Of a stretch of DNA of 24,202 bases, positions 8,814-24,202 are shown piece by piece. How positions within the stretch are numbered: the first letter of the stretch is position 1; every line of letters begins with the position of its first letter. The notes under the pieces are model-generated. The model made no database searches. It was not told the origin of the DNA and worked only from the letters and a program-made list of their open reading frames with translations. The position numbers were made by a program, and so were the translations under genes. The stretch is from an uncultured Candidatus Saccharibacteria bacterium (lineage in GTDB: Bacteria > Patescibacteriota > Minisyncoccia > UBA6257 > GWB1-50-10), in contig CAYRVA010000001.1 in NCBI GenBank assembly GCA_964427645.1, positions 1 to 24,202 on the forward strand, given 5' to 3'.

Positions 8814-8821
8814 GTCTTTAG

Positions 8822-12006: not shown

Positions 12007-12026
12007 CGCTTTCTGGGCGCAGCCGG

Positions 12027-12513: not shown

Positions 12514-12998
12514 TGTACTGGTATTTCGGATATTTCGTGGTCGCGATGATCGCGGCCCATCTGACGATCCTTTCGCTGCACCAAATTTTCCGCCGGCCGA
12601 AAGCCTCGGTCAAAAGACCGATGGTGGTGATGTTCCCGTTCGTCTGCGGCGTTTTTACCCTCGTCGTGATGACGTGGAAGGTCATTGCCGGATTGAAGGG
12701 TGAATATGCCGATGCGGTCAGGGACGTCTTCCTGCCGATCCAGATCTACGGCATCGTGATATACCTCGCGATCGGTCTCTTCTACGTGATTCTTTCCGCG
12801 AACAGAGCCGAAAAAGCCGCCGGTAAAAAGGAAGATTGTAGCACGACGCCCAAAACGGACAGGATCCTGGAAAATCATGATCAAGATTTCTCGCCCGACG
12901 ATAAACTCGAGGCCATTGAGGAGGTGATCGGCGTTCATCCGACTCCCTTCGACGATCATGTCGGTCCGAGCCTGGTCAAGCGCATCGTCCAGGCCTGA
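12513..12998 (+). CDS. Hypothetical membrane protein (about 3 TM plus acidic soluble tail)
   Basis: AAAGGAGGT SD, TAATG overlap, followed by an intrinsic terminator. Confidence 0.75.
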   Translation: MYWYFGYFVVAMIAAHLTILSLHQIFRRPKASVKRPMVVMFPFVCGVFTLVVMTWKVIAGLKGEYADAVRDVFLPIQIYGIVIYLAIGLFYVILSANRAEKAAGKKEDCSTTPKTDRILENHDQDFSPDDKLEAIEEVIGVHPTPFDDHVGPSLVKRIVQA

Positions 12999-13023
12999 TA
13001 GATAAGAGTCTGAAAGTTAATTG

Positions 13024-13050
13024 AAAGCTCCGCACCCGCGGAGCTTTTTT
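13024..13050 (+). terminator. Intrinsic terminator
   Basis: AAAGCTCCGC-ACCC-GCGGAGCTTT followed by a T-run. Confidence 0.85.
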
Positions 13051-13062
13051 GTGTCCCGGAAA

Positions 13063-13089
13063 AAGTATGGAGGCCCGGCCTCCATACTT
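13063..13089. repeat. REP-like palindrome AAGTATGGAGGCC-C-GGCCTCCATACTT
   Basis: Perfect 13-bp arms with a 1-nt centre, between convergent genes. Confidence 0.85.
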
Positions 13090-13097
13090 CGGCCGGA

Positions 13098-13613
13098 TCA
13101 CCGATATACGAATTTCCCTTTTCTCACCCGCAAAAATGGCGTGAGCTTGTGCCGCCGGGCCGTGATCCTACTCGAAATGTGATAGACGGCCCATTTTTTC
13201 TTTGTGAGGGCGTCAGCGATGAGCGACCGGTGGCACCGCCACGGCACCGCCTCGGCGCACATGATGGCCGTGCTTTTGTGCCTGGCTATTTTCTCCAGCC
13301 TTTCGATCCCCTTTTCGAAAGCGGTGGTCTGCATGTAGTCCGCAAAGCCGCGGAAGGAAAGATTTTGCCAGCCCGTGTTTTCGGAGTCTTTCGTCGTCCT
13401 CCGCAAGCCGCCCAGCTCCTTCCCAAGCCATCGGTAACCGATGCCGTGATTTTTAAGCGTCCGGCTCAAAGTCGGCCTGGCGAACTGCGGGTTGTGGCGT
13501 GACTTCGGGATAGTCCGCACGTCCACGAGCTCGCGGACGCCGTGGGCCTTGAGGAGCGAAACGAAATAGTCGGCTTCCCTCGTCGAGTGACCGACAGTGA
13601 AGATCCGACTCAT
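13098..13613 (-). CDS. DUF488 family protein
   Basis: IFTVGHS, LVDVR..P.SR..PQF, LGG.R, CAE..PWRCHRSLIAD. True start is ATG 13613 (ATGA overlap with the GNAT stop). Confidence 0.9.
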   Translation of the reverse strand: MSRIFTVGHSTREADYFVSLLKAHGVRELVDVRTIPKSRHNPQFARPTLSRTLKNHGIGYRWLGKELGGLRRTTKDSENTGWQNLSFRGFADYMQTTAFEKGIERLEKIARHKSTAIMCAEAVPWRCHRSLIADALTKKKWAVYHISSRITARRHKLTPFLRVRKGKFVYR

Positions 13614-14146
13614 CGCGAACGCTTTTTCCCCAGCCATTGGTCGCGCAAGATGCCCATTTGGACCAGATCGTGGTAACGGCCGCCCCAGCGGATGTGTTCC
13701 CGCTTTCTGCCCTCCACCTTGAAGCCGAGGCGGCGGTAAACGTGGATGCCGCGGCCGTTGTAGTCGTAAACATCGAGCTCGATGCGGTGGAGTTTCAGCC
13801 GCCTGAAACCGTAGTCGACGATCAGCTTCATCGCTTCCGTCCCATAGCCGTGGTCCCAGTAGCGCTTGTCGCCGATCATAATGCCGAAAACAGCGTAGCC
13901 ATCCCTCCGGTTGATAACGCTGAATCCGACGTTGCCGATGTGGATCCCTTCCTTGGCGTCGACGGCCAGATGGAGCTCGTTCTTCCTTTTGGGAATGGAG
14001 CGGATCCAAACGCGTTCTTCCTTCAGGTCGAGCTTCCGGCGCGAGAGGAATTTGTTCACGCCGGGATCCCGGAACCATTCCACGAAGTGTTCCGCATCCG
14101 CGACCTTCATCGGTCGCAAGATCACCTTTTCACCAATGAGCTTCAT
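13610..14146 (-). CDS. GNAT N-acetyltransferase (RimJ/RimL-like)
   Basis: G..IG...YW..GYGTEA, LHRIEL.V..YN.R....Y..LGF..EG..RE. Confidence 0.9.
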   Translation of the reverse strand: MKLIGEKVILRPMKVADAEHFVEWFRDPGVNKFLSRRKLDLKEERVWIRSIPKRKNELHLAVDAKEGIHIGNVGFSVINRRDGYAVFGIMIGDKRYWDHGYGTEAMKLIVDYGFRRLKLHRIELDVYDYNGRGIHVYRRLGFKVEGRKREHIRWGGRYHDLVQMGILRDQWLGKKRSR

Positions 14147-14153
14147 AGGCAGG

Positions 14154-14594
14154 TCATGCTTTCGCTTCCTTGACCCTCGAAAAAGCGGCCTTGACGACCT
14201 GAACGCCGGACGGGAATAAAAGTTCCCCCGCCTCCTCGAGCGTTACCCATCTCGTTTCCGGTATCTCCAGGTGGAAATCCTCCGGTGTCGCCGATTCCAT
14301 TTTTCTCACCAGGCCGATGAAATACGTGACCGTTTTGCGGTAGTGAACGCCGTCTTTCTCGAATTCATAGGTGTCCTTGATCGGCTCGGCGCCGAAAAGC
14401 TCGATCTCCTTGATGCCCGTCTCTTCGAAAAGCTCCCGGCGAGCCGTTTCAATGTCCGACTCATCGCCGATCTTATGGCCTTTTGGCGACGTCCAGTGCC
14501 GGTCCTTATTGTTGCTCACGACGATCGTCTTGAGAACTCCTCCGTCGTCGCAGACCGGGACGATTCCGAACGATGTATCGAGCTGAGGTCCCAT
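14154..14594 (-). CDS. Nudix hydrolase (Ap4A-hydrolase-like)
   Basis: PKGH plus a complete Nudix box GHKIGDESDIETARRELFEETGI. Confidence 0.9.
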   Translation of the reverse strand: MGPQLDTSFGIVPVCDDGGVLKTIVVSNNKDRHWTSPKGHKIGDESDIETARRELFEETGIKEIELFGAEPIKDTYEFEKDGVHYRKTVTYFIGLVRKMESATPEDFHLEIPETRWVTLEEAGELLFPSGVQVVKAAFSRVKEAKA

Positions 14595-14600
14595 GCTTTA

Positions 14601-14609
14601 ATTCTACCA
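14601..14609 (-). promoter_or_regulatory. Extended -10 promoter (TGG-TAGAAT) 6 nt before the Nudix ATG; probable leaderless mRNA
   Basis: Minus strand reads GTGGTAGAAT-TAAAGC-ATG. Confidence 0.6.
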
Positions 14610-14634
14610 CTCCCGCGGTCCGCCGGCGGATATG

Positions 14635-14664
14635 AAAATAAAAAAGCCGCCGGGAAGCCGACGG
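14635..14664 (-). terminator. Intrinsic terminator
   Basis: Minus strand GCCGTCGG-CTTC-CCGGCGGC-TTTTTATTTT. Confidence 0.75.
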
Positions 14665-14684
14665 CCGTGAAATGAGACGAATCT

Positions 14685-14903
14685 CTATCTCCTTATCAAC
14701 AAAACGAACATCAAGAGATTGAAGACGAACGAACCCGCAGGGTAAAGGCGTTCTTTGATCGTCCAGTCTTCGGCAGCGATCGTGCCGATCAAACCGGCGG
14801 AGGAACAGGAGGACCAGAGCCACCAGCTCGCCGGGTCCGGATGGAGCCAGGCGTCGCGCACCGCCGGGATTCCGGCTAGGATGCTCGCGAGCACCCCGAT
14901 GGT
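14685..14903 (-). pseudogene. Probable 5'-truncated membrane-protein gene (3-TM C-terminal half)
   Basis: TIGVLASILAGIPAVRDAWLHPDPAS...EDWTIKERLYPA...MFVLLIRR* recalls the second half of a roughly 180-aa, internally duplicated PQ-loop-like membrane family (from memory, not searched). Upstream the frame is the antisense of a + strand ORF and stops at 15012-15014. Confidence 0.4.
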
Positions 14904-14916
14904 CCGGGAAAACGTG

Positions 14917-15294
14917 ATGTTCCTCGACTGGGATGAACTTGCGCCCGGCATCGAGCCGAACCGCGAGATAATGGAAAATTTCGACGCGTTCGTGAAGGAA
15001 AACGCCCTGGCCTACGAGATGACGACGTTCATCCAAATGCTCAAGCAGTATCCCGATGCGCTCGACTCCGAATCGGAGCTCAAGGAGGAGGCCAAACGCC
15101 GCATCGCCTGCGAAAGCGATGAGGCGCGGTATCTCACGGGCCCCCGATCCCCTTTCGAGGGCGGACGATTCATCCTCATCCCGCTCGAGCGGCCGGAGCG
15201 CTACGTCTTCTTCGACCTTCTTGTTCCGGATTTCACGAAACGGATCGCTTCCGTCTTCCGGCCTTATCCCTGGCGGCTCAAATCCGACGATTAA
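14917..15294 (+). CDS. Hypothetical soluble protein (start uncertain: 14899, 14917 or 14971)
   Basis: Natural-looking hydrophilic composition; followed at once by a terminator. Confidence 0.55.
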   Translation: MFLDWDELAPGIEPNREIMENFDAFVKENALAYEMTTFIQMLKQYPDALDSESELKEEAKRRIACESDEARYLTGPRSPFEGGRFILIPLERPERYVFFDLLVPDFTKRIASVFRPYPWRLKSDD

Positions 15295-15295
15295 G

Positions 15296-15329
15296 AAAAA
15301 CCCGCGTCCAAACGACGCGGGCATTTTTT
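15296..15329 (+). terminator. Intrinsic (possibly bidirectional) terminator
   Basis: AAAAA-CCCGCGTC-CAAAC-GACGCGGG-CATTTTTT. Confidence 0.8.
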
Positions 15330-15397
15330 AGATGGAAAAATAAAATGCCGCGAGATCTTGAGACCAAGCGGCATTCGACTGAATTATCTTTCGAATT

Positions 15398-15562
15398 TCA
15401 CCAGAACTTCACGGCGAAGTGGGCTATAACGATGACTATCGCCGCCCCAAGCGCTGCGAACAAAGCCATCGCCACGATGATCGTCCTGGGAAAGTTGGAG
15501 AACTCCTCGCCGAATAGCAGGCCGACGAGCCAGTGCGCTACCTTTTGGGAGATCTTACCCAT
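15398..15562 (-). CDS. Small single-TM protein, 54 aa (not in the ORF track)
   Basis: MGKISQKVAHWLVGLLFGEEFSNFPRTIIVAMALFAALGAAIVIVIAHFAVKFW*; GGAAGGAG SD; start overlaps the upstream stop by 8 nt. Confidence 0.6.
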   Translation of the reverse strand: MGKISQKVAHWLVGLLFGEEFSNFPRTIIVAMALFAALGAAIVIVIAHFAVKFW

Positions 15563-16163
15563 CTTTCTCTCCTTCCTCTTCGGCGGCGAAGACCAGCGAC
15601 CATTTGTACGCCAATGAATGGATCACAAGCACGGCCGAAAGGATGGTGAAACCGGTGAGTAGGAAGTAAACCATAAAGTCCGCACCGATCATGGCGAAGA
15701 AGATCGCCGCAGTGGCCGCATAAATAGCGTTGCGCTTGGTGTACCAAACTCTCACTTCGACACTGGATTTCCTCTTCGCGTAGAAAGGGCCGTAGACCAT
15801 ATTGAACCAGAAAGATCTTCGAAAGACCTCGTTCGCTTGTCCGTCCTTGAGAACGTGGATTTCATAGAAAGCCCTGCCGCGATTCAGACCTTCAACCATA
15901 CCCGATCTCAACAGAATCAATAAGATCATTCCACCAAAGATGCCGGATACAAGCGGCGATGTTATGCCGTTCACGGCCCAGGTCAGCCAACTCAGGACCG
16001 GTAGGTCTTTGAGAGTGGAAGCCAACATTCGAATCGCGAGGCCGAAGCAAGCCAGCATCCAGAAGGCTTGCGCGGTTCCAACGGTTATCTGCAACTCGTA
16101 GCTAAGAATGCTCCCGAGGATCGCCTTGCGGCGCCATTTCTTCCCTAGAGAATCGAATTTCAT
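15555..16163 (-). CDS. Hypothetical membrane protein (about 4 TM)
   Basis: GAGGAGG SD, own sigma70-like promoter, two hydrophobic hairpins. Confidence 0.7.
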   Translation of the reverse strand: MKFDSLGKKWRRKAILGSILSYELQITVGTAQAFWMLACFGLAIRMLASTLKDLPVLSWLTWAVNGITSPLVSGIFGGMILLILLRSGMVEGLNRGRAFYEIHVLKDGQANEVFRRSFWFNMVYGPFYAKRKSSVEVRVWYTKRNAIYAATAAIFFAMIGADFMVYFLLTGFTILSAVLVIHSLAYKWSLVFAAEEEGEKDG

Positions 16164-16224
16164 CTATCATTACCTCCTCTTTTGTTTTGTCAGGCGGATC
16201 TTTCAATCCGGTACTTTGACCGCT

Positions 16225-16254
16225 ATTATACGTCATTTGCGAGCATATAGTCAA
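16225..16254 (-). promoter_or_regulatory. sigma70-type promoter TTGACT-N18-TATAAT
   Basis: Reverse complements of AGTCAA (16249-16254) and ATTATA (16225-16230). Confidence 0.6.
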
Positions 16255-16287
16255 GGAACAACGAGTGGTATTATAATTCTAGGATCG

Positions 16288-16497
16288 ATGCGGAAGGAGA
16301 CCGGTATATATGATGTTTCGAAACTCGCCAAGTTCTTTGGCGTCAGGGAGCGCACCGTCCTCGAATGGTGCCGGAAGGGCAAACTGCCCGGATTCAAGAT
16401 CGGCCGGAGATGGAAGGTGAGAGTCGCCGACCTTCAGAAGATGATCGACCGGCAGGTGCGCGGCCGAAGAGAGGGTTCCCCTCCCCGCCTGCTTTAG
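16288..16497 (+). CDS. Small excisionase-like/MerR-type HTH DNA-binding protein (HTH_17-like)
   Basis: YDVSKLAKFFGVRERTVLEWCRKGKLPGFKIGRRWKV; TATAAT at 16272-16277; start moved to ATG 16288. Confidence 0.85.
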   Translation: MRKETGIYDVSKLAKFFGVRERTVLEWCRKGKLPGFKIGRRWKVRVADLQKMIDRQVRGRREGSPPRLL

Positions 16498-16530
16498 CGG
16501 CCGGTATGGTATAATTTTTTCAATCGATCC

Positions 16531-16929
16531 ATGCCCCTCACGCGGGAACAAGAACAAGGCTTGAGCAGCCAGAACTGCGACGCCATCATCGAGATAGACA
16601 AGCTCGGCCGAATCACCTTCGTCCACTACATGACCGAAGAGATCGCGAAGCTCCTCGGCTACGCGGAAAGGGAGCTTTTGGGCCAGCAAGTGACCAATTT
16701 CCTCCTCGAAGCCGGAACGATGGCCGAGGTCGAAACGCTCCACAACCTCTACGCAAGCGAGCAGTCTTTCCGCGGCATGGGCCGGAAAGTGAAGACCAAA
16801 AACGGCCAGATCATCAACTTTGAAAGCTATATGGTTCCCATCTACGACGCCGACGGCCGCTTCATCGGCCACCGCGGGATGGAGTTCCTCGTGGAGCCCT
16901 TTCCGCTGTCGATCGCGAGAAAGAAATAA
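16531..16929 (+). CDS. Stand-alone PAS-domain protein
   Basis: DAIIEID..GRITFV, LLGY...ELLG, KTKNG...., PIYDADG..IG; TGG-TATAAT at 16505-16513. Confidence 0.85.
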   Translation: MPLTREQEQGLSSQNCDAIIEIDKLGRITFVHYMTEEIAKLLGYAERELLGQQVTNFLLEAGTMAEVETLHNLYASEQSFRGMGRKVKTKNGQIINFESYMVPIYDADGRFIGHRGMEFLVEPFPLSIARKK

Positions 16930-16943
16930 AAAGCCCGGCGCAC

Positions 16944-17228
16944 ATGCTGAAGATAGAGGGACATGATATTTTGCGGGACGGAACGAAAGCCGGCTACATC
17001 GAAGGCGACTACATCCGCGGCCGTGACGGGAAGATCCTCGGTTCTTTCGCGGAAGACCACGTGCGCAATGCGGCCGGCCAGAAGATCGCTTATATCGACG
17101 GCAATTACCTTTGTTCCATGAGCGACACCGTCGTCAAAGTATCGCTCGAAAAAGTCAACGAGAACGTGGAAGGCGGGTTTTTACCCGAGATCGGCCGGTG
17201 CGCCGTCTATGCCCTGATCGGCGCTTGA
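16944..17228 (+). CDS. Small beta-hairpin-repeat protein (beta-flower-like)
   Basis: About 16-aa repeats: IEGHDILRDGTKAGY / IEGDYIRGRDGKILGS / FAEDHVRNAAGQKIAY / IDGNYL. Confidence 0.65.
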   Translation: MLKIEGHDILRDGTKAGYIEGDYIRGRDGKILGSFAEDHVRNAAGQKIAYIDGNYLCSMSDTVVKVSLEKVNENVEGGFLPEIGRCAVYALIGA

Positions 17229-17229
17229 A

Positions 17230-17544
17230 ATGAGGGAGCGCCAGACCTTCCGGGAAAAAGTCTATGCGATCGCGAAACGCATACCGCGCGGGCGGGTCGC
17301 AACGTACGGCGGACTCGCGCGCCTGGCCGGCCGCCCGGGCGCCGCGCGGGCCGTCGGATTTTTCATGAAAACCAACCCTTTCTCGCCCCAGGTCCCCTGC
17401 CACCGGGTCGTGGCCTCGGACGGGGCGTTAACGGGATATTCCGCGAGGGGCGGCTTGAAGAAAAAGGAGGCGATGCTGAAACGCGAGGGCGTCAAATTCA
17501 AAGGCAAACGCGCCGACCTTATAAGGTCCAGGTGGCCGAAATAA
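17230..17544 (+). CDS. Single-domain O6-alkylguanine-DNA alkyltransferase (MGMT family)
   Basis: IP.G.V.TYG..A...G...AARAVG and active-site PCHRVV. Confidence 0.9.
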   Translation: MRERQTFREKVYAIAKRIPRGRVATYGGLARLAGRPGAARAVGFFMKTNPFSPQVPCHRVVASDGALTGYSARGGLKKKEAMLKREGVKFKGKRADLIRSRWPK

Positions 17545-17571
17545 ACCCCGCCGAAGGATCGGCGGGTTTTT
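17543..17571. terminator. Bidirectional intrinsic terminator
   Basis: AAAC-CCCGCCGA-AGGA-TCGGCGGG-TTTTT between convergent genes. Confidence 0.85.
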
Positions 17572-17590
17572 GTTCTCTTTACTTGCGGGT

Positions 17591-18265
17591 TCAGACGGGT
17601 ACTTCGCTTTCGCTCAATATCCCGATGAGTTCCTTCACTTCGCGGATTTTCGCGTCGATGTCCTCCTGGGAAAACATCTGCTTGGCCCACTCGGTGTGGA
17701 GCTTCAGCGTCTCGTGGAAAGGCACTTCCATTTTGAGCACCTCGATCGGCTTCTTGCCCCATTCGGCCGCCAGGCCGAAAACGACCTGCTGGATCCACGC
17801 CGAATCCAAAGCCTGGCTCACGTCCGCGTCCCGGAGGATCTGGCCGCTCAAGGGCAAGCTTTCCGACGGGACGGTGTAAGGAAACTCCGTCATCCGGATC
17901 AACGGCGAGATATCTTCCAGGCAATCCCGGTCTTCGGGGAGAATATATTTCTCGAGACCCCGAACGGACCTTTCGATGTTCAAATCGTCGTCGCCCATCA
18001 AACCGGAGTGATTGAAGTCATGGAAAATCGCGGCGATCAGGAGGTTGCGCATCTCCCGGCGGTTGAGCTTGTTTCCGTAGAAAAGGCAGGCTTGGTAGCA
18101 CAGCCACAGCACGTGGAACATGTGCCGGAAATTATGATAGGGATTGCTCAAATTCTGGGCGTGATCGAAGATCGCCCGGAAATAACCCTTGAGGTCGCCT
18201 TGGTAAACATCGGCGCTGTTGCTGATGATGGCCGGCAAACTGCCATCGACTCGTGAAGATTCCAT
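17591..18265 (-). CDS. HD-superfamily phosphohydrolase resembling class I cyclic-nucleotide phosphodiesterases
   Basis: NPYHNFRHMFHV, AAIFHDFNHSG, LIRMTE, ILRDADVS; AAGGAG SD. Confidence 0.8.
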   Translation of the reverse strand: MESSRVDGSLPAIISNSADVYQGDLKGYFRAIFDHAQNLSNPYHNFRHMFHVLWLCYQACLFYGNKLNRREMRNLLIAAIFHDFNHSGLMGDDDLNIERSVRGLEKYILPEDRDCLEDISPLIRMTEFPYTVPSESLPLSGQILRDADVSQALDSAWIQQVVFGLAAEWGKKPIEVLKMEVPFHETLKLHTEWAKQMFSQEDIDAKIREVKELIGILSESEVPV

Positions 18266-18308
18266 TTTCTGCTCCTTCTTATTGTCGTTGGTTTAAAGGT
18301 TCGCCAGA

Positions 18309-18337
18309 ATCCTACAGCCGGACCCGGCCGCGGTCAA
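18309..18337 (-). promoter_or_regulatory. sigma70-type promoter of the HD gene, TTGACC-N17-TAGGAT
   Basis: Reverse complements of GGTCAA (18332-18337) and ATCCTA (18309-18314). Confidence 0.55.
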
Positions 18338-18343
18338 GAAATG

Positions 18344-18383
18344 AAAATAAAAAGGGACTCGGTAAAAAGCTGCACCGAGCCCC
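18344..18383 (-). terminator. Intrinsic terminator downstream of the Ubl operon
   Basis: GGGGCTCGGT-(10 nt)-ACCGAGTCCC-TTTTTATTTT on the minus strand. Confidence 0.75.
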
Positions 18384-18565
18384 TAGGATGAATCTTGCGC
18401 TTTCGGCTCTTGCGATGAGCGGTTAAGGATCATTCGCCTTTTCGCTTCATGCCAAGCGCCCTACTCGCGGTGGGGTTCGCTAATCTGCCAGGAGGTCCTT
18501 TGTTTGATCGTCCCACTCCCCCTGTCCGGGTTTTTTGGATCTACCTGCGCGTCGACGCAATACCC
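18384..18565 (-). ncRNA. Candidate structured RNA between the Ubl stop and the terminator
   Basis: No convincing ORF; several short hairpins and GNRA-type sequences (GCGA, GCAA, GAAA) on the minus strand. Confidence 0.25.
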
Positions 18566-18590
18566 AGTAAAAACACCGACGCCGGTTTTT

Positions 18591-18914
18591 CTAGTTGCCC
18601 TGAATCTTCGGGACAACCAGAACTATGTCGCCTTCGGCCACTTTCGTGTCCCAGGCAACATTCTCCCAATGCTCACCGACTTTTTCGGCAAGCATTTCGC
18701 CGTTTAGCTGCGGAACGTCCACACCTTTGTGGTCGCCGCCCGCGTCGTATTCGTCGCGCTGGACCGGAAAGGCCGGACCATCCAGACCTTTCTTTTGGCC
18801 GATCTCGACGGCCGCGCGTGACATAACATCGAAGACGGAGAATGGACCGTTTCCTTCCATGTTCAATTCGACGATCGTGCCGGGAACTCTCCCAGCCTTC
18901 ACCAGGATACCCAT
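18591..18914 (-). CDS. Ubiquitin-like (ThiS/MoaD/beta-grasp) protein, 107 aa, ending ...VVPKIQGN
   Basis: AAAGGAG SD before ATG 18914; beta-beta-alpha start; 'QLNGE' and 'WDTKVAEGDIVLVVP' match the ThiS/MoaD C-terminal signature; co-operonic with E1, JAB and E2. Confidence 0.85.
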   Translation of the reverse strand: MGILVKAGRVPGTIVELNMEGNGPFSVFDVMSRAAVEIGQKKGLDGPAFPVQRDEYDAGGDHKGVDVPQLNGEMLAEKVGEHWENVAWDTKVAEGDIVLVVPKIQGN

Positions 18915-18927
18915 AACCACTCCTTTC

Positions 18928-19680
18928 TTAGTTTTTCTTATTTCCTCGTTTACCCCAATCGGTCGCCGTGACCAAAATGGGGCGAATGCACAACATTTCG
19001 TAATTACTGTGTTCATTGGCCGCGGGCGCGACCGTGACTACCGGAGACATTTCTTCGCCAGCCACGAATTTCACGAGCTTGTGCGCTGCGAGTCCGGCGA
19101 CGGCCGCGACGGTCGTCGCGATCGCCCGGTAGGTGCAAGCCGATTCTTCGCCTTCTCCGTCGGAGAAAAGCGACTCATCGAAGCCTTGCACGTCGCGGCG
19201 ATTGGTCGGCCGAACGGTGTGGATGATTCCGATCTCGGCCCCAAGACGGGTCTCGACCATCAACTTAACGTCCAAATGGAATTTGATGGCCTTTTCCCAG
19301 ATCTCCTTCCGGGAGCTCATTGTATCCGTACAGAGGAATACTATTCCCGAAAGCTTCTTGGTCCCGTCGACCTTTTCGCGGTGCGGTACTACTTCCGTGC
19401 CGCAATCCGCTAGCAACCGGCTCGCCAAGGCTTCCACTTTGGTCTTACCCACGTCCTGCCGGCCATAAACTTGGTTAGGCAGATTATGGGGCTCGATCGT
19501 GTCGAAATCCCAGGCGTGGATCTTCCTTATCCCCATTTTGGCGAGAAGGTACGCGATCCAACTACCCGTGGCTCCGACACCGATAACGTGGACCTCTTCG
19601 TTGAAAGCCTCGGGATTGAAGACGTCCAATTGACGCCAGTAGTCCGGCGATGCAACGGCCACCTCATCCCGGGATTCCAT
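18928..19680 (-). CDS. ThiF/E1-like Ubl-activating enzyme (250 aa)
   Basis: YWRQ arginine finger, GVGATGS nucleotide loop, DFDTIEPHNLPNQ, DVGKTKV, CTDTMSSR, crossover-loop Cys in EESACTY; no CxxC Zn pairs. Confidence 0.9.
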   Translation of the reverse strand: MESRDEVAVASPDYWRQLDVFNPEAFNEEVHVIGVGATGSWIAYLLAKMGIRKIHAWDFDTIEPHNLPNQVYGRQDVGKTKVEALASRLLADCGTEVVPHREKVDGTKKLSGIVFLCTDTMSSRKEIWEKAIKFHLDVKLMVETRLGAEIGIIHTVRPTNRRDVQGFDESLFSDGEGEESACTYRAIATTVAAVAGLAAHKLVKFVAGEEMSPVVTVAPAANEHSNYEMLCIRPILVTATDWGKRGNKKN

Positions 19681-20389
19681 CTTCCGACTCTCCTTTCTTG
19701 TCCAGAGATTCGATGACACCCGGTCGAACGAAACTGAACCGGGCGGTCGATACGAAACCTCGGCTCACCTTTTGTTTCAGTTCCTCCACGATGCGCCCAC
19801 GGAGATCTTCCCTTTCCGGTTCGTAAACCGACCAGGGAACATCGATGACCCGCATTTTGCGGTCGTAGAAGAACACTTCAAAACGGAGGTTGCCGCTTTT
19901 GTTGGCTATCCCCATGATGAAATAATCGGCGCCTTCCCCAAATCGGTACATCGAAGCGAGGTCGCCGTAATCATTCGGGCCGTATGAACCGGAGGGGGCG
20001 ACTCCCATGTTAACGTGAGAATGACCCCAGAATCGGACGGCGTTGGCCTTTTCCACCCCGTCAGGCTCAGTGAGCATTTTGGTGAAGAATTCACCCACGC
20101 TTTTCTGATCCAACTTGGTTTCCGAGAAGCCGACTTCCTGCTCGAAAAGGAAAACCTCTTCTATCATGAACGTCATGCCATCCCGGCGAACGGTGCCGAG
20201 CCAACTGACTTCTTCGGGAGATTCGGACACGATGTAATACATCGTGTCGTAAGCTTCCCGGGAAATGAGGATGGTCGGCATCCCTCCGAGAACTTCCGTC
20301 TCGGTCTTGAACTGATGGGGCGTGAAACGGTTCGCCGCCCCGAAATACCGTGCCGTCACGCGGAACGGCGAAGGACGATCTTTCTTCAT
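19664..20389 (-). CDS. JAB/MPN+ (JAMM) metallo-isopeptidase-like protein
   Basis: N-terminal Glu strand (EEVSWLG) and WGHSHVNMGVAPSG...D; ATGA overlap with the E2 stop; AAAGGAGG SD. Confidence 0.85.
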   Translation of the reverse strand: MKKDRPSPFRVTARYFGAANRFTPHQFKTETEVLGGMPTILISREAYDTMYYIVSESPEEVSWLGTVRRDGMTFMIEEVFLFEQEVGFSETKLDQKSVGEFFTKMLTEPDGVEKANAVRFWGHSHVNMGVAPSGSYGPNDYGDLASMYRFGEGADYFIMGIANKSGNLRFEVFFYDRKMRVIDVPWSVYEPEREDLRGRIVEELKQKVSRGFVSTARFSFVRPGVIESLDKKGESEDGIPG

Positions 20390-21885
20390 CTGATTTCCTC
20401 CTTTGATTCTTTTTGGACCTTCGGCCAGCTATCTATGTACTTCCCGGCCATATCATCAACGTTCACGCTCTGCAGATACTGAATCGCCAGCATGGCGACG
20501 ACAGAGTATTCGTACGCCCCAATGTATTGAGGGATAGCTTCCTTCAAGTTCCCGAGGCAAGGCTCGCCATTGGGAAACACGTGCGGAGCGTGCATCTTTT
20601 CCTTGGAACCGTTGACCCGCCGGGTCAGGTTGAACATACGGACCCCACCATTGGACCCATCCGTATAGATGTCTATACGAAAATTGCCAATATCATACGT
20701 CGAACCTCCTTGCTCGACGTAGATCCGGTCGGTAAAAACGGAGATCACGTTATCTTCTACTTTCACGGCGGTAATGTGGGGCAGATCGAAGAGTTTGTCG
20801 AACTCGGCGGCGTAGCGTTCGATTATCTGCGGCCTTGTGGCCTCCAGTTGCTCGAGCTTACGCTCCTGACCGTCGCAAATACGGATTTGCTCGACCACCT
20901 CCCTTTGTGCTTCCTCATAGGCGGCTCGCGCCGCTTTGATCTTTCGGCGTGTATCTCCGACGGTCACTTCGAACCGCTTCGAACAGGCCCTGGCCCACTC
21001 TTCGCGTGATTTTTTCCGCTCGGCTTCGCGGATCTGGTCCAGGAGCGCGGCGACTTTCTTAGGGTCTCTTTCGATAACCAACGGCAAGAGTTCACAGATC
21101 AGCTCTTCCGCCAATTTGTAGACGCCCCTTTCCGGGCAGCCTCCCAAATTGGATATGCGGATGTAAAGCCCGCCGGTGACGTAGTGCGCCACTAGGTGCT
21201 CTCTTTCTTTCTGCCGTGCGCCAGACATATGCCAGCTATCCTGCTCGAAGATCAGGTAAAATTTGCCGTCCGTCGGTATTCCCTCTTCTTTCGGAGGAGA
21301 GAAGGATAGAACGGTCGGCAGATCGATCTCTTTTTGGTCGACCACCCAATCCCTTATGGCGCGAGCCAGATTCTTCCAATGATCACAGGGGTACTGGGAG
21401 TGAGCGTCGACCGTGAACAATTCCTTTCGCGCTTTCGCGGCGGCCGCACGTTTTTCCAGTTTCTCGCGGGTCGCCGGATCTTTCAACGCCGTGTAGCACT
21501 GCATTATCCCCGCCATGAGACTTATTCCCGTCCCGGCATGAGGAAGATCGAAGAGAACGTAAAGCGTGCCTTCATGCACCTCCCCCACCACCTGCTCGGT
21601 TATGGGGTCGATGAGCGGCAGCCCTTCTCCCGTCGGCTTTAAAGCATCGCATTGGCCTTCAGCCAATTGAACGCCGAAAGCCGACCCGATTTTAGCCTTG
21701 GATGTCCCTCTTGGCACCGACCAAAACTTGATGAACAGCTTACCTTCCGCTTTTTCCGGCGGAGATGGTACGCCATGTGGATTCGAAACGATCAAATCCA
21801 CGCCCAAAAGATCGGCATAATCCTGGAGTGTTGACTCGATCTCGTCCGCTAACTCGAGATCATCGCCTCTGAATTCAACCTTCAT
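20386..21885 (-). CDS. Multidomain protein: duplicated N-terminal domain, coiled coil and C-terminal prokaryotic E2/UBC-like domain
   Basis: HAPHVFPNGEPCLGN (Cys443) resembles the E2 HPN...G.ICL flap and active site, followed by QYLQSVNVDD...W; AAAGGAGG SD. Confidence 0.8.
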   Translation of the reverse strand: MKVEFRGDDLELADEIESTLQDYADLLGVDLIVSNPHGVPSPPEKAEGKLFIKFWSVPRGTSKAKIGSAFGVQLAEGQCDALKPTGEGLPLIDPITEQVVGEVHEGTLYVLFDLPHAGTGISLMAGIMQCYTALKDPATREKLEKRAAAAKARKELFTVDAHSQYPCDHWKNLARAIRDWVVDQKEIDLPTVLSFSPPKEEGIPTDGKFYLIFEQDSWHMSGARQKEREHLVAHYVTGGLYIRISNLGGCPERGVYKLAEELICELLPLVIERDPKKVAALLDQIREAERKKSREEWARACSKRFEVTVGDTRRKIKAARAAYEEAQREVVEQIRICDGQERKLEQLEATRPQIIERYAAEFDKLFDLPHITAVKVEDNVISVFTDRIYVEQGGSTYDIGNFRIDIYTDGSNGGVRMFNLTRRVNGSKEKMHAPHVFPNGEPCLGNLKEAIPQYIGAYEYSVVAMLAIQYLQSVNVDDMAGKYIDSWPKVQKESKEEIR

Positions 21886-21975
21886 TGTTTCCTCCTTTCG
21901 CCTTTGAGCATCATTCGGCTCGCCGGCATTTTTATTTGTCTGTCATTCCTAAGGTTGTCAATTCGTCTGGCCAAG

Positions 21976-22035
21976 ATAATATATCATTTACGTTTACTTG
22001 TCAATTTGACGGGCCAAGTTATTTATTGTTAAATT
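21976..22035. promoter_or_regulatory. Back-to-back divergent sigma70-type promoters
   Basis: Minus: TTGACA (22004-21999)-N17-TATTAT (21981-21976). Plus: TTGACG (22006-22011)-N18-TAAATT (22030-22035) with an extended TG. The two -35 boxes form the palindrome GTCAA-T-TTGAC. Confidence 0.6.
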
Positions 22036-22161
22036 ATCAGTGCTCAAGAGGTATTTTGAGCCGGAAATAAAGACCAACGATCTTTGAAAATTTTAAAGAG
22101 GTCAAACGGTCACATCTCGTCACCAACCGATCAAACAGGTCAGAAAGGAGCAATCGTGATC

Positions 22162-22455
22162 ATGGACCAAAAACGGACGAAAGGGTTCGTTATTGGCTCC
22201 TCCACCGCATCGAAAGGACGCATTGTCTGGAAGGTGCGCGTGGAAGATCCAGCTAGTCCGCATAACGGGCAGAAGCTTGTCGTCGCTTCGATCCAAGGAG
22301 GATTGGAGTTGGCTCAAGGGTTGAACGTCGACTTCGCTGTCGGGACGGTCGACGGCCCACTCGGAACGAAGATTCTCCGGGCGGTCGACGTACGCCTCGA
22401 AGACCCCGACGATGTCCCGAACATCAATCAGGTCAAAAGAACAGGAGGTCAGTAA
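22162..22455 (+). CDS. Small OB-fold/cold-shock-like beta-barrel protein ending ...KRTGGQ (alternative start GTG 22156)
   Basis: AAAGGAG SD at 22144-22150; five predicted beta strands; 'GLNVDFAVGT..GP.G....RAVDVR' recalls the CSD 'G..V.F....G.KG..A.NV' pattern; TAATG coupling to arc. Confidence 0.6.
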   Translation: MDQKRTKGFVIGSSTASKGRIVWKVRVEDPASPHNGQKLVVASIQGGLELAQGLNVDFAVGTVDGPLGTKILRAVDVRLEDPDDVPNINQVKRTGGQ

Positions 22456-23927
22456 TGGATCCAGACACAGAACGCCAGTTAAATTCTTTGCGCCAAGAAC
22501 TGGGAAGAGCAAAAACCAAGCTCAACGAAAAAGAAAGCATCATTCAACAACTCATGAGCCCGCCGCTCGCTTACGCTACCGTCGTGGCCATTAACGAAGC
22601 GACCGGTAGGAATACTGCCGTCATTATCGCGAACGGCCACGTTTTCGAAGTGTTCCTCCCCCAAAACGTCGCGATAGGCCCAGGCGACACCGTGGCGATC
22701 ACGCCGTCGACGATGCAGATCGTCGATACCGCCGTGATCCAAGGCAGCGGCACCATTGGTTACGTGCACCGCCCGATCGATGCTACGTTTTCGGAAGTGG
22801 AATACGAGTCATCGGTGCGGATGGTCTTCAACGGCAAACTAAGCGGCCAGCTCGAAAAGGGCGACCGCGTTGTCCTGGACGCTACAGGCACCGTCATTAC
22901 CCGCAACCTCGGAAAGGATAACGAACGTTTTCGATTCGATGAGGAAACGAACGTTACGTGGAACGATATCGGCGGTCTAGATGAAGCGAAACGGCAACTC
23001 ACTGAAGCCATCGAATTGCCTCATAGCAACCCGGATATATTCAAGTTCTACGACAAGAAACCGGTCAAGGGCATTTTGCTCTGGGGACCGCCCGGCTGCG
23101 GCAAAACCTTGCTCGGCAAGGCGTGTGCAACGGCGCTCTCTCGTATCCACAAGAACGGGTCAAGATCTACCGGCTTTATTTACATCAAGGGGCCGGAGAT
23201 ATTGGACAAATTCGTCGGTGTCGCCGAAGGGGCTATTCAGCAAATATTCCAAAGGGCCCGCAAGCACAAGAAGACGCACGGCTATCCGGCCGTTGTCTTC
23301 ATCGATGAAGCTGATGCTATACTGGCGAAGCGCGGCAGCGGTATCAGCTCGGACGTGGAACGAACCATCGTTCCCATGTTCCTGACGGAAATGAGCGGCC
23401 TAGAAGATTCCGGTGCCTTGGTGATCCTTTCCACGAATCGCCCCGATATTCTCGACCCGGCGGTCATCCGCGATGATCGCATTGATCGAAAGATCAAAGT
23501 AAGCCGACCGACGCCGGAAAATGCAGCCGATATTTTCATGCTCAACCTCAAACGGGTACCGCTCAACAACGGTTACACCCGGGAAGAGCTGGCAGAGCTC
23601 GGCAGTAGAGAGCTTTTCTCGTCTCGACGAGTGCTCTATAAGATCGACACCCGGAACAACGGCACCATCGACTTCACTCTCGGCAACATCGTGAACGGCG
23701 GTATGATCGTCAGCACCGTCGATCAAGCCACGTCCATCGCCATTCGGCGGGATCTCTCGGGGAAAGAAGGGTCAAAAGGTCTCCGCAAGGAAGACCTCAT
23801 AGCTGCCATCGACTCGGTCGAAGGCCAAAATCGCAACCTTAATCATGAAGATGATCTAGCGGATTTCATATACGAGTTCCGCAATGACGTCAGAGACATC
23901 CAGAGACTCCGTCAGGCAAGGACATAA
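22455..23927 (+). CDS. arc: ARC/Mpa-type proteasome-associated AAA+ ATPase lacking the C-terminal HbYX/GQYL tail
   Basis: N-terminal coiled coil ending in SPP, two OB-like segments, DIGGL, GPPGCGKT, IKGPEILDKFVG, FIDEAD, RGSGISSDVERTIVP, NRPDILDPAVIR..RIDRKIKV.RP, and the Mpa-type post-AAA insert (..NGGMI). Confidence 0.9.
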   Translation: MDPDTERQLNSLRQELGRAKTKLNEKESIIQQLMSPPLAYATVVAINEATGRNTAVIIANGHVFEVFLPQNVAIGPGDTVAITPSTMQIVDTAVIQGSGTIGYVHRPIDATFSEVEYESSVRMVFNGKLSGQLEKGDRVVLDATGTVITRNLGKDNERFRFDEETNVTWNDIGGLDEAKRQLTEAIELPHSNPDIFKFYDKKPVKGILLWGPPGCGKTLLGKACATALSRIHKNGSRSTGFIYIKGPEILDKFVGVAEGAIQQIFQRARKHKKTHGYPAVVFIDEADAILAKRGSGISSDVERTIVPMFLTEMSGLEDSGALVILSTNRPDILDPAVIRDDRIDRKIKVSRPTPENAADIFMLNLKRVPLNNGYTREELAELGSRELFSSRRVLYKIDTRNNGTIDFTLGNIVNGGMIVSTVDQATSIAIRRDLSGKEGSKGLRKEDLIAAIDSVEGQNRNLNHEDDLADFIYEFRNDVRDIQRLRQART

Positions 23928-23942
23928 TCAGAACAAAAACTT

Positions 23943-23980
23943 GGGGCAGTTCCATAGGCTCGGAACTGTCCCTTTTATTT
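23943..23980 (+). terminator. Intrinsic terminator of the arc operon
   Basis: GGGGCAGTTCC-(8 nt)-GGAACTGTCCC-TTTTATTT. Confidence 0.8.
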
Positions 23981-23991
23981 CTCCGCAATGC

Positions 23992-24019
23992 TTTACACGA
24001 GAGGTTTTTCTTATATAAT
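23992..24019 (+). promoter_or_regulatory. sigma70-type promoter of the tRNA, TTTACA-N16-TATAAT
   Basis: TTTACA 23992-23997; TATAAT 24014-24019. Confidence 0.55.
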
Positions 24020-24046
24020 TGAGACGTTGTCTTCGGGCAACGTCAT

Positions 24047-24118
24047 TCCGGTGTAGCTCAGCGGTAGAGCGGCTCCCTGTTAAGGAGATGGTCGTAGGTT
24101 CGAATCCTACCACCGGAG
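24047..24118 (+). tRNA. tRNA-Asn (GTT); CCA not encoded
   Basis: Acceptor TCCGGTG/CACCGGA, D arm GCTC/GAGC, anticodon loop CTGTTAA, T arm GTAGG-TTCGAAT-CCTAC, discriminator G. The top anticodon-stem pair is G-A and the 3' end reads CCG. Confidence 0.95.
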
Positions 24119-24132
24119 CCGAGAAATAAAAC

Positions 24133-24164
24133 AAAAGCACCCGTCAGGGTGTTTTTGCTTTTTT
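24133..24164 (+). terminator. Intrinsic terminator after the tRNA
   Basis: AAAAGCACCC-GTCA-GGGTGTTTTT followed by GCTTTTTT. Confidence 0.8.
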
Positions 24165-24190
24165 CGAGGCGAACGGTGGCTGTGGAGCAG

Positions 24191-24202
24191 TACCACCGGA
24201 GC
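24191..24202 (+). repeat. Direct repeat of the tRNA-Asn 3' end (TACCACCGGAGC), cut by the window edge
   Basis: 12/12 identical to 24108-24119. Confidence 0.7.

What the first reader, a model, noticed from the sequence alone, without database searches (positions are those of the whole stretch)
22455..23927. ARC ATPase stripped of its proteasome-docking tail and most of its N-terminal coiled coil
The protein follows mycobacterial Mpa motif by motif, including the post-AAA beta-grasp-type insert. It ends at ...VRDIQRLRQART with no GQYL/HbYX motif, which Mpa needs to engage the 20S core. The N-terminal region before the conserved PP hinge is only about 35 aa, whereas Mpa has a much longer Pup-binding helix. 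Walker A/B, pore loop KFVG and both arginine fingers are intact. Two conserved positions differ: EMSG for the usual E[MI]DG inter-subunit motif, and RDDRID for RPGR.D. Inference: an active unfoldase uncoupled from both Pup and 20S, re-targeted to the neighbouring Ubl.
Basis: partly seen in the sequence, partly recalled or inferred. Interest (0 to 1): 0.72.

Follow-up and report, generated by a model that had tools for sequence, protein, structure and literature searches.

The report
Proteasome-free Mpa-like unfolding motor
This gene encodes an intact protein-unfolding motor built like the mycobacterial proteasome ATPase but naturally lacking the proteasome-docking tail; it belongs to an apparently undescribed phage- and tiny-genome-borne sister family and lies beside a ubiquitin-like tagging cassette, a pairing that recurs once elsewhere but is not the rule.

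Summary
ORF 22455-23927 encodes a 490-aa protein with Mpa's full architecture: a coiled-coil helix, two OB domains, the AAA module and a beta-grasp-like end. It has no GQYL/HbYX tail and only about 32 residues of coil. The short end is natural: relatives end the same way, and a terminator and tRNA-Asn follow the stop.

The protein is not Mpa/ARC proper. It sits in a well-supported sister clade found on huge-phage contigs and in scattered CPR genomes. The clade was not found in 39 same-genus or same-family genomes.

The 0.59 Mb host genome (90% complete) shows no 20S, PafA/Dop or Pup. A genome of the same order does carry a full proteasome operon, and its ATPase keeps a long coil and a C-terminal extension.

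Relatives usually carry a Pup-like microprotein with a cysteine tail and a DUF1360 membrane protein downstream. This copy has lost both. It keeps only an upstream, translationally coupled cold-shock-fold protein.

"Re-targeted to the neighbouring Ubl" is weakly supported. The cassette and the ATPase share one 6.5 kb species-specific island, and the same divergent pairing recurs in one distant contig. Most relatives of either module stand alone.

This scan has already found the family in other genomes.

The parts
22455..23927 (+). ARC/Mpa-like AAA+ ATPase, 490 aa (P0001)
   Evidence: Open frame. TIGR03689 310 bits, below the cut-off. AF2 model and Foldseek matches to Mpa. Member of the phage/CPR sister clade.
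22461..22556 (+). N-terminal coiled-coil helix (residues 3-34), followed by the SPP hinge (35-37)
   Evidence: A helix in the AF2 model. It aligns with the hinge-proximal 30 residues of the Mpa coil. This length is the family norm.
22569..22913 (+). Double OB domain (OB1 residues 39-92, OB2 residues 100-153). It lacks the 75-95 residue insert that most relatives carry after the first OB strand
   Evidence: Strands in the model. The insert is visible in A2 columns 120-340.
23085..23108 (+). Walker A, GPPGCGKT (211-218)
   Evidence: Sequence. Invariant in A2.
23208..23219 (+). Pore loop 1, KFVG (252-255)
   Evidence: Sequence. It corresponds to Mpa K340-G343, the Ar-Hb-Gly motif (PMC8755798).
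23292..23309 (+). Walker B, VVFIDE (280-285)
   Evidence: Sequence. D284 and E285 are invariant.
23388..23399 (+). EMSG (312-315), where the family consensus is EMDG
   Evidence: A2. Ser also occurs in P0062 and P0094, Gly in P0077 and Asn in P0114.
23469..23486 (+). RDDRID (339-344): both Arg fingers are kept, and G341D is private to this copy
   Evidence: A2 consensus is R[DE]GRID. G341D is one of only two departures from near-invariant columns.
23616..23927 (+). C-terminal helical and beta-grasp-like region, ending after the last strand with no linker and no GQYL
   Evidence: Model strands 393-408 and 479-484. Alignment with Mpa. Relatives' ends.
22162..22455 (+). 97-aa cold-shock/OB-fold protein (P0123). 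Its stop overlaps the ATPase start (TAATG). Its disordered C-terminal tail ends in GGQ
   Evidence: AF2 pLDDT 88 with five strands. Unr CSD Z 10.1 and Csp matches. Homologues sit upstream of the ATPase in L001 and L165-L167. The GGQ end is not conserved.
21955..22035 (.). Divergent promoter region between the Ubl cassette and the small97-ATPase operon
   Evidence: Promoter-like sites on both strands.
23943..23972 (+). Intrinsic terminator closing the two-gene operon
   Evidence: 11-pair stem followed by a T run.
18591..21885 (-). Divergently transcribed Ubl-conjugation cassette: a 499-aa E2-fusion, a 241-aa JAB-like protein, a 263-aa ThiF/E1 and a 107-aa Ubl
   Evidence: The E1 was confirmed by Pfam and NCBIfam. 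The E2, JAB and Ubl labels come from earlier notes. I saw these genes only as conserved cassette members in L180 and L182-L185.
17545..24046 (.). Species-specific 6.5 kb block (HD protein, Ubl cassette, small97-ATPase) between an MGMT-like gene and tRNA-Asn
   Evidence: Same-genus G002 holds 1.17 kb of other genes between the same flanks. The interior of the block gave no DNA match in G001 or G003.

Best explanation
The gene encodes an intact, proteasome-independent hexameric unfoldase. It belongs to an apparently undescribed sister clade of Mpa/ARC that is carried mainly by large phages and is scattered by horizontal transfer through CPR genomes.

What is shown: Mpa's full domain plan (coil, double OB, AAA, beta-grasp), intact ATP-binding, hydrolysis and pore-loop motifs, a natural tail-less end, and no 20S, PafA/Dop or Pup genes found in the assembled genome.

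What is inferred: six subunits form a ring whose paired N-terminal helices and OB collar receive a client. The KFVG pore loops thread the client. With no docking tail and no proteasome found, the unfolded or extracted polypeptide is released rather than passed to a protease, as with a Cdc48-, VAT- or Msp1-type segregase.

Most family members recruit through a downstream Pup-like microprotein with a cysteine tail and a DUF1360 membrane protein. This copy has lost both. It is reduced to a two-gene operon with a translationally coupled cold-shock-fold protein, which I take to be its adaptor or first client; that protein's disordered tail could serve as the threading end.

The adjacent E2-JAB-E1-Ubl cassette may supply tagged clients. 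That link is facultative.
For: - Architecture and motifs.
- The natural end is conserved in more than 100 relatives and followed by a terminator.
- Sister clade with SH-aLRT 98, viral rows basal.
- Sporadic distribution: not found in 3 same-genus or 36 same-family genomes, and found in 1 of 24 other families of the order. Full-length relatives at 38-47% identity lie on IMG/VR contigs of 150-530 kb.
- No PF00227, PF03136 or PF05639 in the own genome, which is 90% complete. No 20S in 5 of 5 ATPase-bearing viral records.
- In-order contrast with G043's full proteasome operon, whose ATPase has a long coil and a C-terminal extension.
- Purifying selection: only R262Q and G341D depart from near-invariant family columns.
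- The cold-shock-fold partner is conserved upstream with overlapping stop and start in L001 and L165-L167. Its fold is shown.
- The downstream microprotein and DUF1360 are present in relatives but absent here and from the assembled genome.
Against: - There is no biochemical, expression or interaction evidence for any step.
- Loss of the two most widely conserved partners could mean loss of the original function.
- G341D sits between the two arginine fingers and is unique among 31 aligned relatives, so it might impair inter-subunit ATP sensing.
- The cold-shock-fold partner accompanies the ATPase only in the closest subclade, so it is not a family-wide requirement.
- About 10% of the genome is unassembled.
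- ClpP and an FtsH-like gene exist in the genome, so hand-over to another protease cannot be excluded on sequence alone.
Confidence: 0.6

Rival explanations
1. One reading: the ATPase is the dedicated unfoldase arm of the neighbouring Ubl system. In this 'tag and unfold' model the E1/E2 cassette conjugates the 107-aa Ubl to targets, and the ATPase recognises and unfolds or extracts the conjugates without proteolysis.
For: - The two operons are divergent and share a 276-bp promoter region.
- Both lie in one 6.5 kb block that a same-genus genome lacks.
- The same divergent layout recurs in L180/L181, with the ATPase at 52%, E1 at 38%, JAB at 29% and E2 at 29% identity.
- The nearest relatives of each module are unpaired, so the two pairings look independent.
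- ThiF genes occur elsewhere in 6 of 10 ATPase-bearing viral records.
Against: - Only 2 of 30 ATPase-clade loci and 2 of 6 cassette loci are paired within the fetched flanks.
- In phage records the E1 lies 18-66 kb or more from the ATPase.
- The base rate of ThiF in large phages is unknown; the one control record had none.
- The partners that the family conserves are not Ubls.
- Both modules may simply be common cargo of the same mobile elements.
Confidence: 0.27
2. It is a decaying remnant of the phage/CPR cassette. It was stranded after deletion of the microprotein and DUF1360 genes and now has no function in this cell.
For: - Both downstream partners are missing.
- It has a longer terminal branch than its nearest relatives in the tree: 0.17 against 0.02-0.06.
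- It carries a private G341D change.
Against: - The frame is open.
- Every catalytic motif is intact, with only two departures from near-invariant columns, no more than its close relatives show.
- It keeps its own promoter-like sites, a ribosome-binding context, a coupled upstream gene and a clean terminator.
Confidence: 0.08
3. It still feeds a compartmental protease, such as the genome's ClpP, an FtsH-type protease or an unrecognised peptidase, through a docking element other than HbYX.
For: - ClpP and an FtsH-like AAA gene are present in the genome.
- The beta-grasp region, which in Mpa also touches the 20S (PMC8755798), is retained.
Against: - No peptidase gene is linked to the ATPase in any of the loci read.
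- No docking tail is present.
- No 20S was found in 5 of 5 phage records.
- I know of no ARC-type ATPase that docks on ClpP (own knowledge).
Confidence: 0.04
4. It is a true Pup/UBact-proteasome ATPase, and its partner genes lie in the unassembled 10% of the genome.
For: - A genome of the same order (G043) has a full proteasome operon.
- G040 has both a clade member and a 20S beta-like gene, on different contigs.
Against: - The protein sits outside the Mpa/ARC and UBact-type clades.
- It lacks the tail and the extension that G043's ATPase keeps.
- None of 3 same-genus genomes (91-98% complete) has a 20S.
Confidence: 0.01

Closest known systems
Mpa/ARC, the proteasome-associated AAA ATPase of the Pup-proteasome system (TIGR03689; PDB 5KWA, 5KZF, 7PX9)
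   Same: It shares the domain order: N-terminal coiled-coil helix, hinge Pro, two OB barrels, a classic-clade AAA module with an Ar-Hb-Gly pore loop and two Arg fingers, and a C-terminal beta-grasp-like region. Mpa gives the best structural and single-domain sequence matches.
   Different: There is no GQYL or penultimate Tyr and no linker, and the protein ends 20-25 residues early. The coil is about 32 residues against about 45-50, and the long N-terminal extension is missing. The TIGR03689 score is below the cut-off. It forms a separate sister clade. No Pup, Dop/PafA or 20S was found in the genome. RDGRID replaces RPGRLD.
UBact-type proteasome ATPases of Nitrospirota, Verrucomicrobiota and a CPR genome of the same order (G043)
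   Same: They have the same fold and are also bacterial relatives outside the Actinobacteria.
   Different: They form their own clade (SH-aLRT 99). They keep a long coil and a C-terminal extension ending in hydrophobic residues. They sit in Dop-beta-alpha-PafA operons with a Pup/UBact-like gene.
The proteasome-free ARC-like cassette (ATPase, Pup-like Cys-tailed microprotein, DUF1360) noted earlier in this scan. I found no description of it in the paper library
   Same: It shares the same ATPase clade, the same conserved tail-less end and the same phage/CPR distribution.
   Different: This copy has lost the microprotein and DUF1360. It carries the subclade-specific cold-shock-fold partner. It lies beside a Ubl cassette.
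Cdc48/p97/VAT with ubiquitin-type tags (functional analogy only)
   Same: Both are AAA unfoldases of the classic clade that can act on tagged proteins without being fixed to a protease.
   Different: Cdc48 has two AAA rings and a double-psi-barrel N domain. This protein has one ring, OB domains and a coiled coil, and its AAA module lies outside the clades formed by the two-AAA-domain archaeal relatives in the tree.
Bil/Bub bacterial ubiquitination-like operons (for the neighbouring cassette)
   Same: The gene set is E1, E2, a JAB-type peptidase and a Ubl.
   Different: 'AAA+' has no occurrences in the three Bil/Bub papers retrieved. I did not test the neighbouring cassette for membership of Bil or Bub.

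Membership tests
Mpa/ARC (TIGR03689 pup_AAA equivalog) | Score at or above the curated equivalog cut-off (504.75 bits) | tested here: not met
   310.4 bits, covering profile positions 18-489 of 512.
Mpa/ARC (TIGR03689 pup_AAA equivalog) | N-terminal coiled-coil helix, double OB domain, AAA module and C-terminal beta-grasp domain | tested here: met
   AF2 model. Foldseek's top 30 matches are all Mpa chains over about 480 columns. Alignment. The coil is shorter, at about 32 residues.
Mpa/ARC (TIGR03689 pup_AAA equivalog) | C-terminal GQYL / penultimate-Tyr docking motif (PMC8755798) | tested here: not met
   The protein ends ...RLRQART. Most of the Mpa-type ORFs fetched from the genome collection end in GQYL or a close variant, and no ORF of this clade that I read does.
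Mpa/ARC (TIGR03689 pup_AAA equivalog) | Genome encodes Pup, Dop/PafA and the 20S alpha and beta subunits | tested here: not met
   No PF05639, PF03136 or PF00227 in the 90%-complete genome. Absence from the unassembled part is not proven.
Mpa/ARC (TIGR03689 pup_AAA equivalog) | Branches inside the Mpa/ARC clade | tested here: not met
   It lies in a separate 49-row clade (SH-aLRT 98) beside the Mpa (97) and UBact-type (99) clades. The tree used the AAA module only and a quick search.
Classic-clade AAA unfoldase | Walker A and B, sensor-1 Asn, two Arg fingers in the second region of homology, and an aromatic-hydrophobic-Gly pore loop | tested here: met
   GPPGCGKT, VVFIDE, N328, R339/R342 and KFVG. 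PF00004 E 1.2e-33.
Phage/CPR tail-less ARC-like cassette (ATPase + Cys-tailed Pup-like microprotein + DUF1360) | ATPase belongs to the clade and shares its conserved end (...DLNH.D.L.EF...V..I..LRQ...) | tested here: met
Phage/CPR tail-less ARC-like cassette (ATPase + Cys-tailed Pup-like microprotein + DUF1360) | A 59-84 aa microprotein with a Pup-like helix and a C-terminal Cys cluster immediately downstream | tested here: not met
   A terminator and tRNA follow at once. A profile of the microprotein family finds nothing in the assembled genome. The likeness to Pup is itself weak: hhalign probability 53% over 16 columns.
Phage/CPR tail-less ARC-like cassette (ATPase + Cys-tailed Pup-like microprotein + DUF1360) | DUF1360 membrane protein (CxYCxSHW motif) downstream | tested here: not met
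   Present in L001, L002, L165-L167, L180 and eight viral loci. No match in the assembled genome of this organism.
PAN/Rpt proteasomal ATPases | Single OB domain, an HbYX tail and a 20S partner | tested here: not met
   Two OB domains, no HbYX and no 20S found. NF003069 scores 186 bits against a cut-off of 500.
Cdc48/VAT | Tandem D1 and D2 AAA domains with an N-terminal double-psi barrel | tested here: not met
   One AAA module only. TIGR01243 matches residues 163-381 at 195 bits against a cut-off of 802. The protein lies outside the clades of two-AAA-domain archaeal relatives.

The most novel reading that the evidence does not exclude
The repeated, apparently independent placing of a proteasome-free ARC-like unfoldase back-to-back with an E2-JAB-E1-Ubl cassette (this island and contig L180) marks a bacterial or phage 'tag-and-unfold' pathway. 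In it, Ubl conjugation would mark proteins for ATP-driven unfolding or extraction without proteolysis. That would be a prokaryotic counterpart of ubiquitin-Cdc48/p97, built on an Mpa-type motor.
Probability: 0.2. Interest if true: 0.85.

Novelty: new variant of a known kind. Interest (0 to 1): 0.55.

Why it matters
Mpa/ARC is treated as the proteasome's own ATPase in bacteria. A well-populated sister clade that keeps the whole recognition and threading machinery, but never has the docking tail or a proteasome, shows that this motor has a second, proteasome-free role, much of it in large phages and ultra-small bacteria.

This copy is a natural minimal form with one small partner, no membrane anchor and no microprotein. 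That makes it a convenient construct for asking what the motor does alone. Its position beside a ubiquitin-like tagging cassette offers a concrete test of whether prokaryotic Ubl tags can direct unfolding rather than degradation.

The family itself has already been met several times in this scan, so the new points here are the reduced form, the cold-shock-fold partner and the recurrent Ubl adjacency.

Tried and rejected
- **Complex prediction.** Full-length ATPase (A2) with the 97-aa protein (A5) gave no verdict (score 0.00, controls not run). It counts neither for nor against binding.
- **Viral-contig scan with the single protein.** It found nothing. The alignment was needed.
- **Genome-collection scan.** It was saturated by the GPPGCGK pattern at 600 rows, so it mostly returned actinobacterial Mpa and few clade members.
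- **Pfam on the small proteins.** No hit for the 97-aa protein or for the relatives' microproteins, including Pup, even at E 10. PHROGs had none for the 97-aa protein or the one microprotein tested, and PADLOC and NCBIfam had none for the 97-aa protein.
- **The GGQ end as a Pup-type terminus.** Rejected, because the end varies or is absent among 13 homologues.
- **Fused forms of the cold-shock-like domain.** Pfam found nothing in ten longer proteins.
- **Control for ThiF in large phages.** Four of five control records were not held, so only one was searched. The 6-of-10 co-occurrence therefore has no usable base rate.
- **Attachment-site repeats around the island.** Only a 16-nt, 88% inverted repeat at the borders, which may be chance.
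- **Rfam on 12000-24202.** Only the tRNA.
- **Literature.** No paper found on this clade or on an AAA partner of Bil/Bub operons.
- **Expression.** No RNA holder listed. The only holders are three DNA runs of one mine-drainage study. I did not lay reads.
- **Frameshift or premature stop as the cause of the missing tail.** Rejected, because relatives end at the same place.
Full report
**The gene and its setting.** ORF 22455-23927 on the + strand is open and encodes 490 residues ending ...VRDIQRLRQART. Its ATG overlaps the TAA of a 97-codon upstream ORF at 22162-22455 (TAATG). The stop is followed by an 11-pair hairpin with a T run at 23943-23972. Next comes a promoter-like site and then tRNA-Asn at 24047-24120. 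The short C-terminus is therefore not an assembly edge or a visible frameshift.

Window positions 1-12000 carry core cell genes (PBP2, MreC, two MreB, a class II tRNA synthetase, Ddl, RseP, RRF, HolB), so this is chromosome and not a phage contig. The genome is 0.59 Mb in 113 contigs and 90% complete, which is the size of a CPR bacterium.

**Checking the observation.** The best protein family is TIGR03689 pup_AAA at 310 bits, below the 504.75 cut-off. The match covers profile positions 18-489 of 512, so only the profile's ends are missing. Among solved structures, Mpa gives the longest single stretch (residues 131-462, 193 bits). Cdc48 and VAT entries score higher only because two domains are summed.

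An AF2 model built on 31 relatives (pLDDT 84) shows these elements:
- a helix at 3-34;
- two five-stranded barrels at 39-92 and 100-153;
- the AAA module;
- a beta-hairpin at 393-408 and a closing strand at 479-484.

Its 30 best Foldseek matches are all Mpa chains, E 1e-36 to 1e-29 over about 480 columns. Rpt subunits follow.

Walker A (211-218), KFVG (252-255), Walker B (280-285), N328 and R339/R342 are all present. In an alignment with natural Mpa/ARC sequences taken from fetched loci, the protein ends right after the strand that matches Mpa's 'RIVYIRTL'. It lacks the linker of about 20 residues and the GQYL. It has 34 residues before the SPP hinge, where a mycobacterial-type Mpa has about 110. 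The roles of GQYL, the coil and the beta-grasp in Mpa are taken from PMC8755798.

- The surviving helix matches the hinge-proximal 30 residues of the Mpa coil, and one genuine ARC (L119) has only about 42 residues there.
- EMDG and R[DE]GRID are the consensus of this protein's own family. Ser314 recurs in relatives, and only G341D is private.

**What family it is.** A search of 5.8 billion proteins gave thousands of hits. The best 120 (48-72% identity) come from metagenomes and CPR MAGs such as Kerfeldbacteria and Staskawiczbacteria. Nearly all of them share the end '...DLNH.DEL.EFVHDFR.DV..I..LRQ...' and a short N-terminal helix before S/TPP. None has a penultimate Tyr.

Most relatives carry an extra 75-95 residues after the first OB strand. 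This copy and seven of the aligned relatives lack that insert.

IMG/VR holds full-length relatives at 38-47% identity on contigs of 150-530 kb. In a maximum-likelihood tree of the AAA module, these viral sequences, the CPR and metagenome proteins, and two genome-collection loci (L083, L164) form one clade of 49 rows (SH-aLRT 98). That clade sits beside the Mpa/ARC clade (97) and a UBact-type clade (99), and all three are apart from the two-AAA-domain archaeal relatives and the PAN-like row. Viral rows branch first within the clade. This was a quick search on 227 columns, so the order of branching needs a more careful run.

Most of the Mpa-type ORFs I extracted end in GQYL or a near variant. 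The UBact-type ones end in two hydrophobic residues.

**Distribution and the proteasome question.** The ATPase was not found (E 1e-60) in 3 same-genus or 36 same-family genomes. It was found in 1 of 24 other families of the order. It is therefore an accessory, horizontally moved gene.

The own genome shows no Proteasome, Pup_ligase or Pup family match. It does have ClpP and an FtsH-like AAA gene. Five ATPase-bearing viral records have no 20S.

Proteasomes are not foreign to this order. G043 carries a 590-aa Mpa-like ATPase (TIGR03689, 391 bits), Dop, beta, alpha and PafA in a row, plus a small ORF with a Pup/UBact-like helix that ends in Gly-Gln. That ATPase has a roughly 95-residue N-terminal coil and a C-terminal extension. 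G040 has both a member of the tail-less clade and a 20S beta-like gene, on different contigs. The tail-less clade is thus a separate system, not a decayed local Mpa.

**Conserved partners.** In four close relatives (L001, L165, L166, L167; 71-72% identity) the ATPase sits in the same four-gene order:
- a 96-98 aa homologue of the upstream ORF, with overlapping stop and start;
- the ATPase;
- a 59-72 aa protein;
- a DUF1360 membrane protein.

DUF1360 also follows the ATPase in L002, L180 and eight viral loci.

The small downstream proteins share a disordered basic N-terminus, one helix ('QIDDVLAEVDKA', 'SLIDEIDELLG') and a C-terminal Cys cluster. A profile-profile comparison with 20 natural Pup sequences aligns that helix with Pup's Mpa-binding helix, but only at 53% probability over 16 columns. 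This is a lead, not a result.

Neither of these two genes is present here. Profiles of both find nothing in the assembled genome. I reached this picture before reading earlier notes of this scan, which describe the same cassette in other genomes, including one other copy that has lost both partners.

**The upstream protein.** Its core is conserved in 13 close homologues, but the GGQ end is not. The ends read GGQS, GDKS, VKR or GG, or are absent, so it is not a Pup-type terminus.

A profile search of 1.84 billion representatives finds 159 clusters. Some are free-standing proteins of 80-100 aa, and others carry the domain at the N-terminus of longer proteins. The AF2 model (pLDDT 88) is a five-stranded barrel with a disordered tail from residue 80. 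Its best matches are cold-shock domains (Unr CSD1, Z 10.1, rmsd 1.9 over 68 residues; CspC/CspE by Foldseek), and more weakly the OB domain of PAN.

Among all fetched loci the domain lies next to the ATPase only in the closest subclade.

**The Ubl neighbour.** The divergent operon at 18591-21885 holds a ThiF/E1. Earlier notes label its other genes as an E2 fusion, a JAB peptidase and a Ubl. I did not confirm those three labels myself.

DNA comparison with same-genus genomes shows synteny up to an MGMT-like gene at about 17245-17519 and again at tRNA-Asn. Between those flanks G002 has 1.17 kb holding a cold-shock gene and a 168-aa gene. This genome has 6.5 kb holding an HD protein, the Ubl cassette and the ATPase pair. 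The two modules therefore belong to one variable block.

A 44-kb contig (L180/L181) repeats the layout. E2-like genes, a JAB-like gene, E1 and a ThiS-like gene lie on one strand. On the other strand, divergently, lie two small genes, a clade ATPase (52% identity), a 60-aa gene and DUF1360.

Against a fixed link:
- Four other cassette loci, including the closest ones (E1 at 77% and 62% identity), have no AAA gene within the fetched flank of 2.8-10 kb on the side where the ATPase would lie.
- Only 2 of 30 clade loci have the cassette within the fetched flanks.
- ThiF genes occur in 6 of 10 ATPase-bearing viral records, but 18 kb or more from the ATPase, and I have no usable base rate.

The nearest relatives of each module are unpaired. 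The two pairings therefore look independent, which is mild evidence for a functional tie. It is equally what one expects of two cargo modules of the same mobile elements.

**Verdict.** The protein is an intact, naturally tail-less member of a sister clade of Mpa/ARC, and it is best read as a proteasome-independent unfoldase. It departs from near-invariant family columns only at R262Q and G341D, so it is under constraint.

This copy is a reduced form: a two-gene operon with a cold-shock-fold partner. The idea that it serves the neighbouring Ubl system is possible, and I give it about one chance in four. None of this has been tested at the bench. The complex prediction gave no verdict, and no RNA data were listed.

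Noticed in passing
L165:11705-11890, L001:9746-9922, L166:11570-11770, L167:11690-11905, L003:7329-7532, L004:7468-7719, L007:3632-3838, L014:7780-7995, L017:7712-7897: Relatives carry a 59-84 aa protein just downstream of the ATPase. It has a disordered basic N-terminus, one acidic helix resembling Pup's Mpa-binding helix (hhalign probability 53%, 16 columns) and a C-terminal Cys cluster (CxC, CC, CGCW). The gene is absent from this window.
   Followed up: partly
L167:11910-12326, L002:9669-10118, L004:7685-8179, L014:8191-8580: The DUF1360 membrane proteins that follow the ATPase share a CxYC(T/M)SHW motif. Several end in a helix whose sequence resembles the ATPase's own N-terminal coil (for example '...LREALRVARTKLVEQARIIKELQK'). 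This hints at a coiled-coil contact between the membrane protein and the ATPase.
   Followed up: no
L187 (G043:C5:34000-43500), minus strand 2415-8823 and a small ORF at 3880-4140: A CPR genome of the same order carries a complete Mpa-like / Dop / 20S beta / 20S alpha / PafA operon, plus a small ORF with a Pup/UBact-like helix ending in ...EGQ. Pup-type proteasome systems therefore do occur in this lineage.
   Followed up: partly
window 17566-17581 and 23925-23940: A 16-nt inverted repeat (88% complementary) lies exactly at the two borders of the 6.5 kb variable block. It may be chance.
   Followed up: no
window 21950-22040: The divergent intergenic region holds two direct copies of about 25 nt (TTGTCAATT..G.C.GGCCAAG.TA.T). 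These could be tandem promoters or operator sites shared by the two operons.
   Followed up: no
L178 (G002:C10:3500-7500) 1516-1713 and 1883-2389: Where this genome has the island, the same-genus genome G002 has a canonical 65-aa cold-shock protein gene and a 168-aa secreted-looking protein next to tRNA-Asn.
   Followed up: no
A2 columns about 120-340 (for example P0003, P0016, P0072, P0118): Most relatives have a variable insert of 75-95 residues or more after the first OB strand. It is possibly a small beta-rich domain, with motifs like G.G.V....GW..V.F.DG. At least two sequence types occur. The window's protein lacks it.
   Followed up: no
L168 (G000:C1:23900-29487) 2847-3596: Downstream of the window, contig C1 carries a 249-aa ORF that looks by eye like an IS200/REP-associated tyrosine transposase, and a second tRNA-like stretch near L168:1508-1600. 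I did not scan either. A short run of masked bases follows the window's end.
   Followed up: no
L165:1594-9457: In one close relative the ATPase cassette lies in a defence-island-like stretch holding bAvd with a reverse transcriptase, Fic, RadC, a DNA methylase with an NgoFVII-type restriction enzyme, Z1 and Vsr, with a serine recombinase nearby.
   Followed up: no
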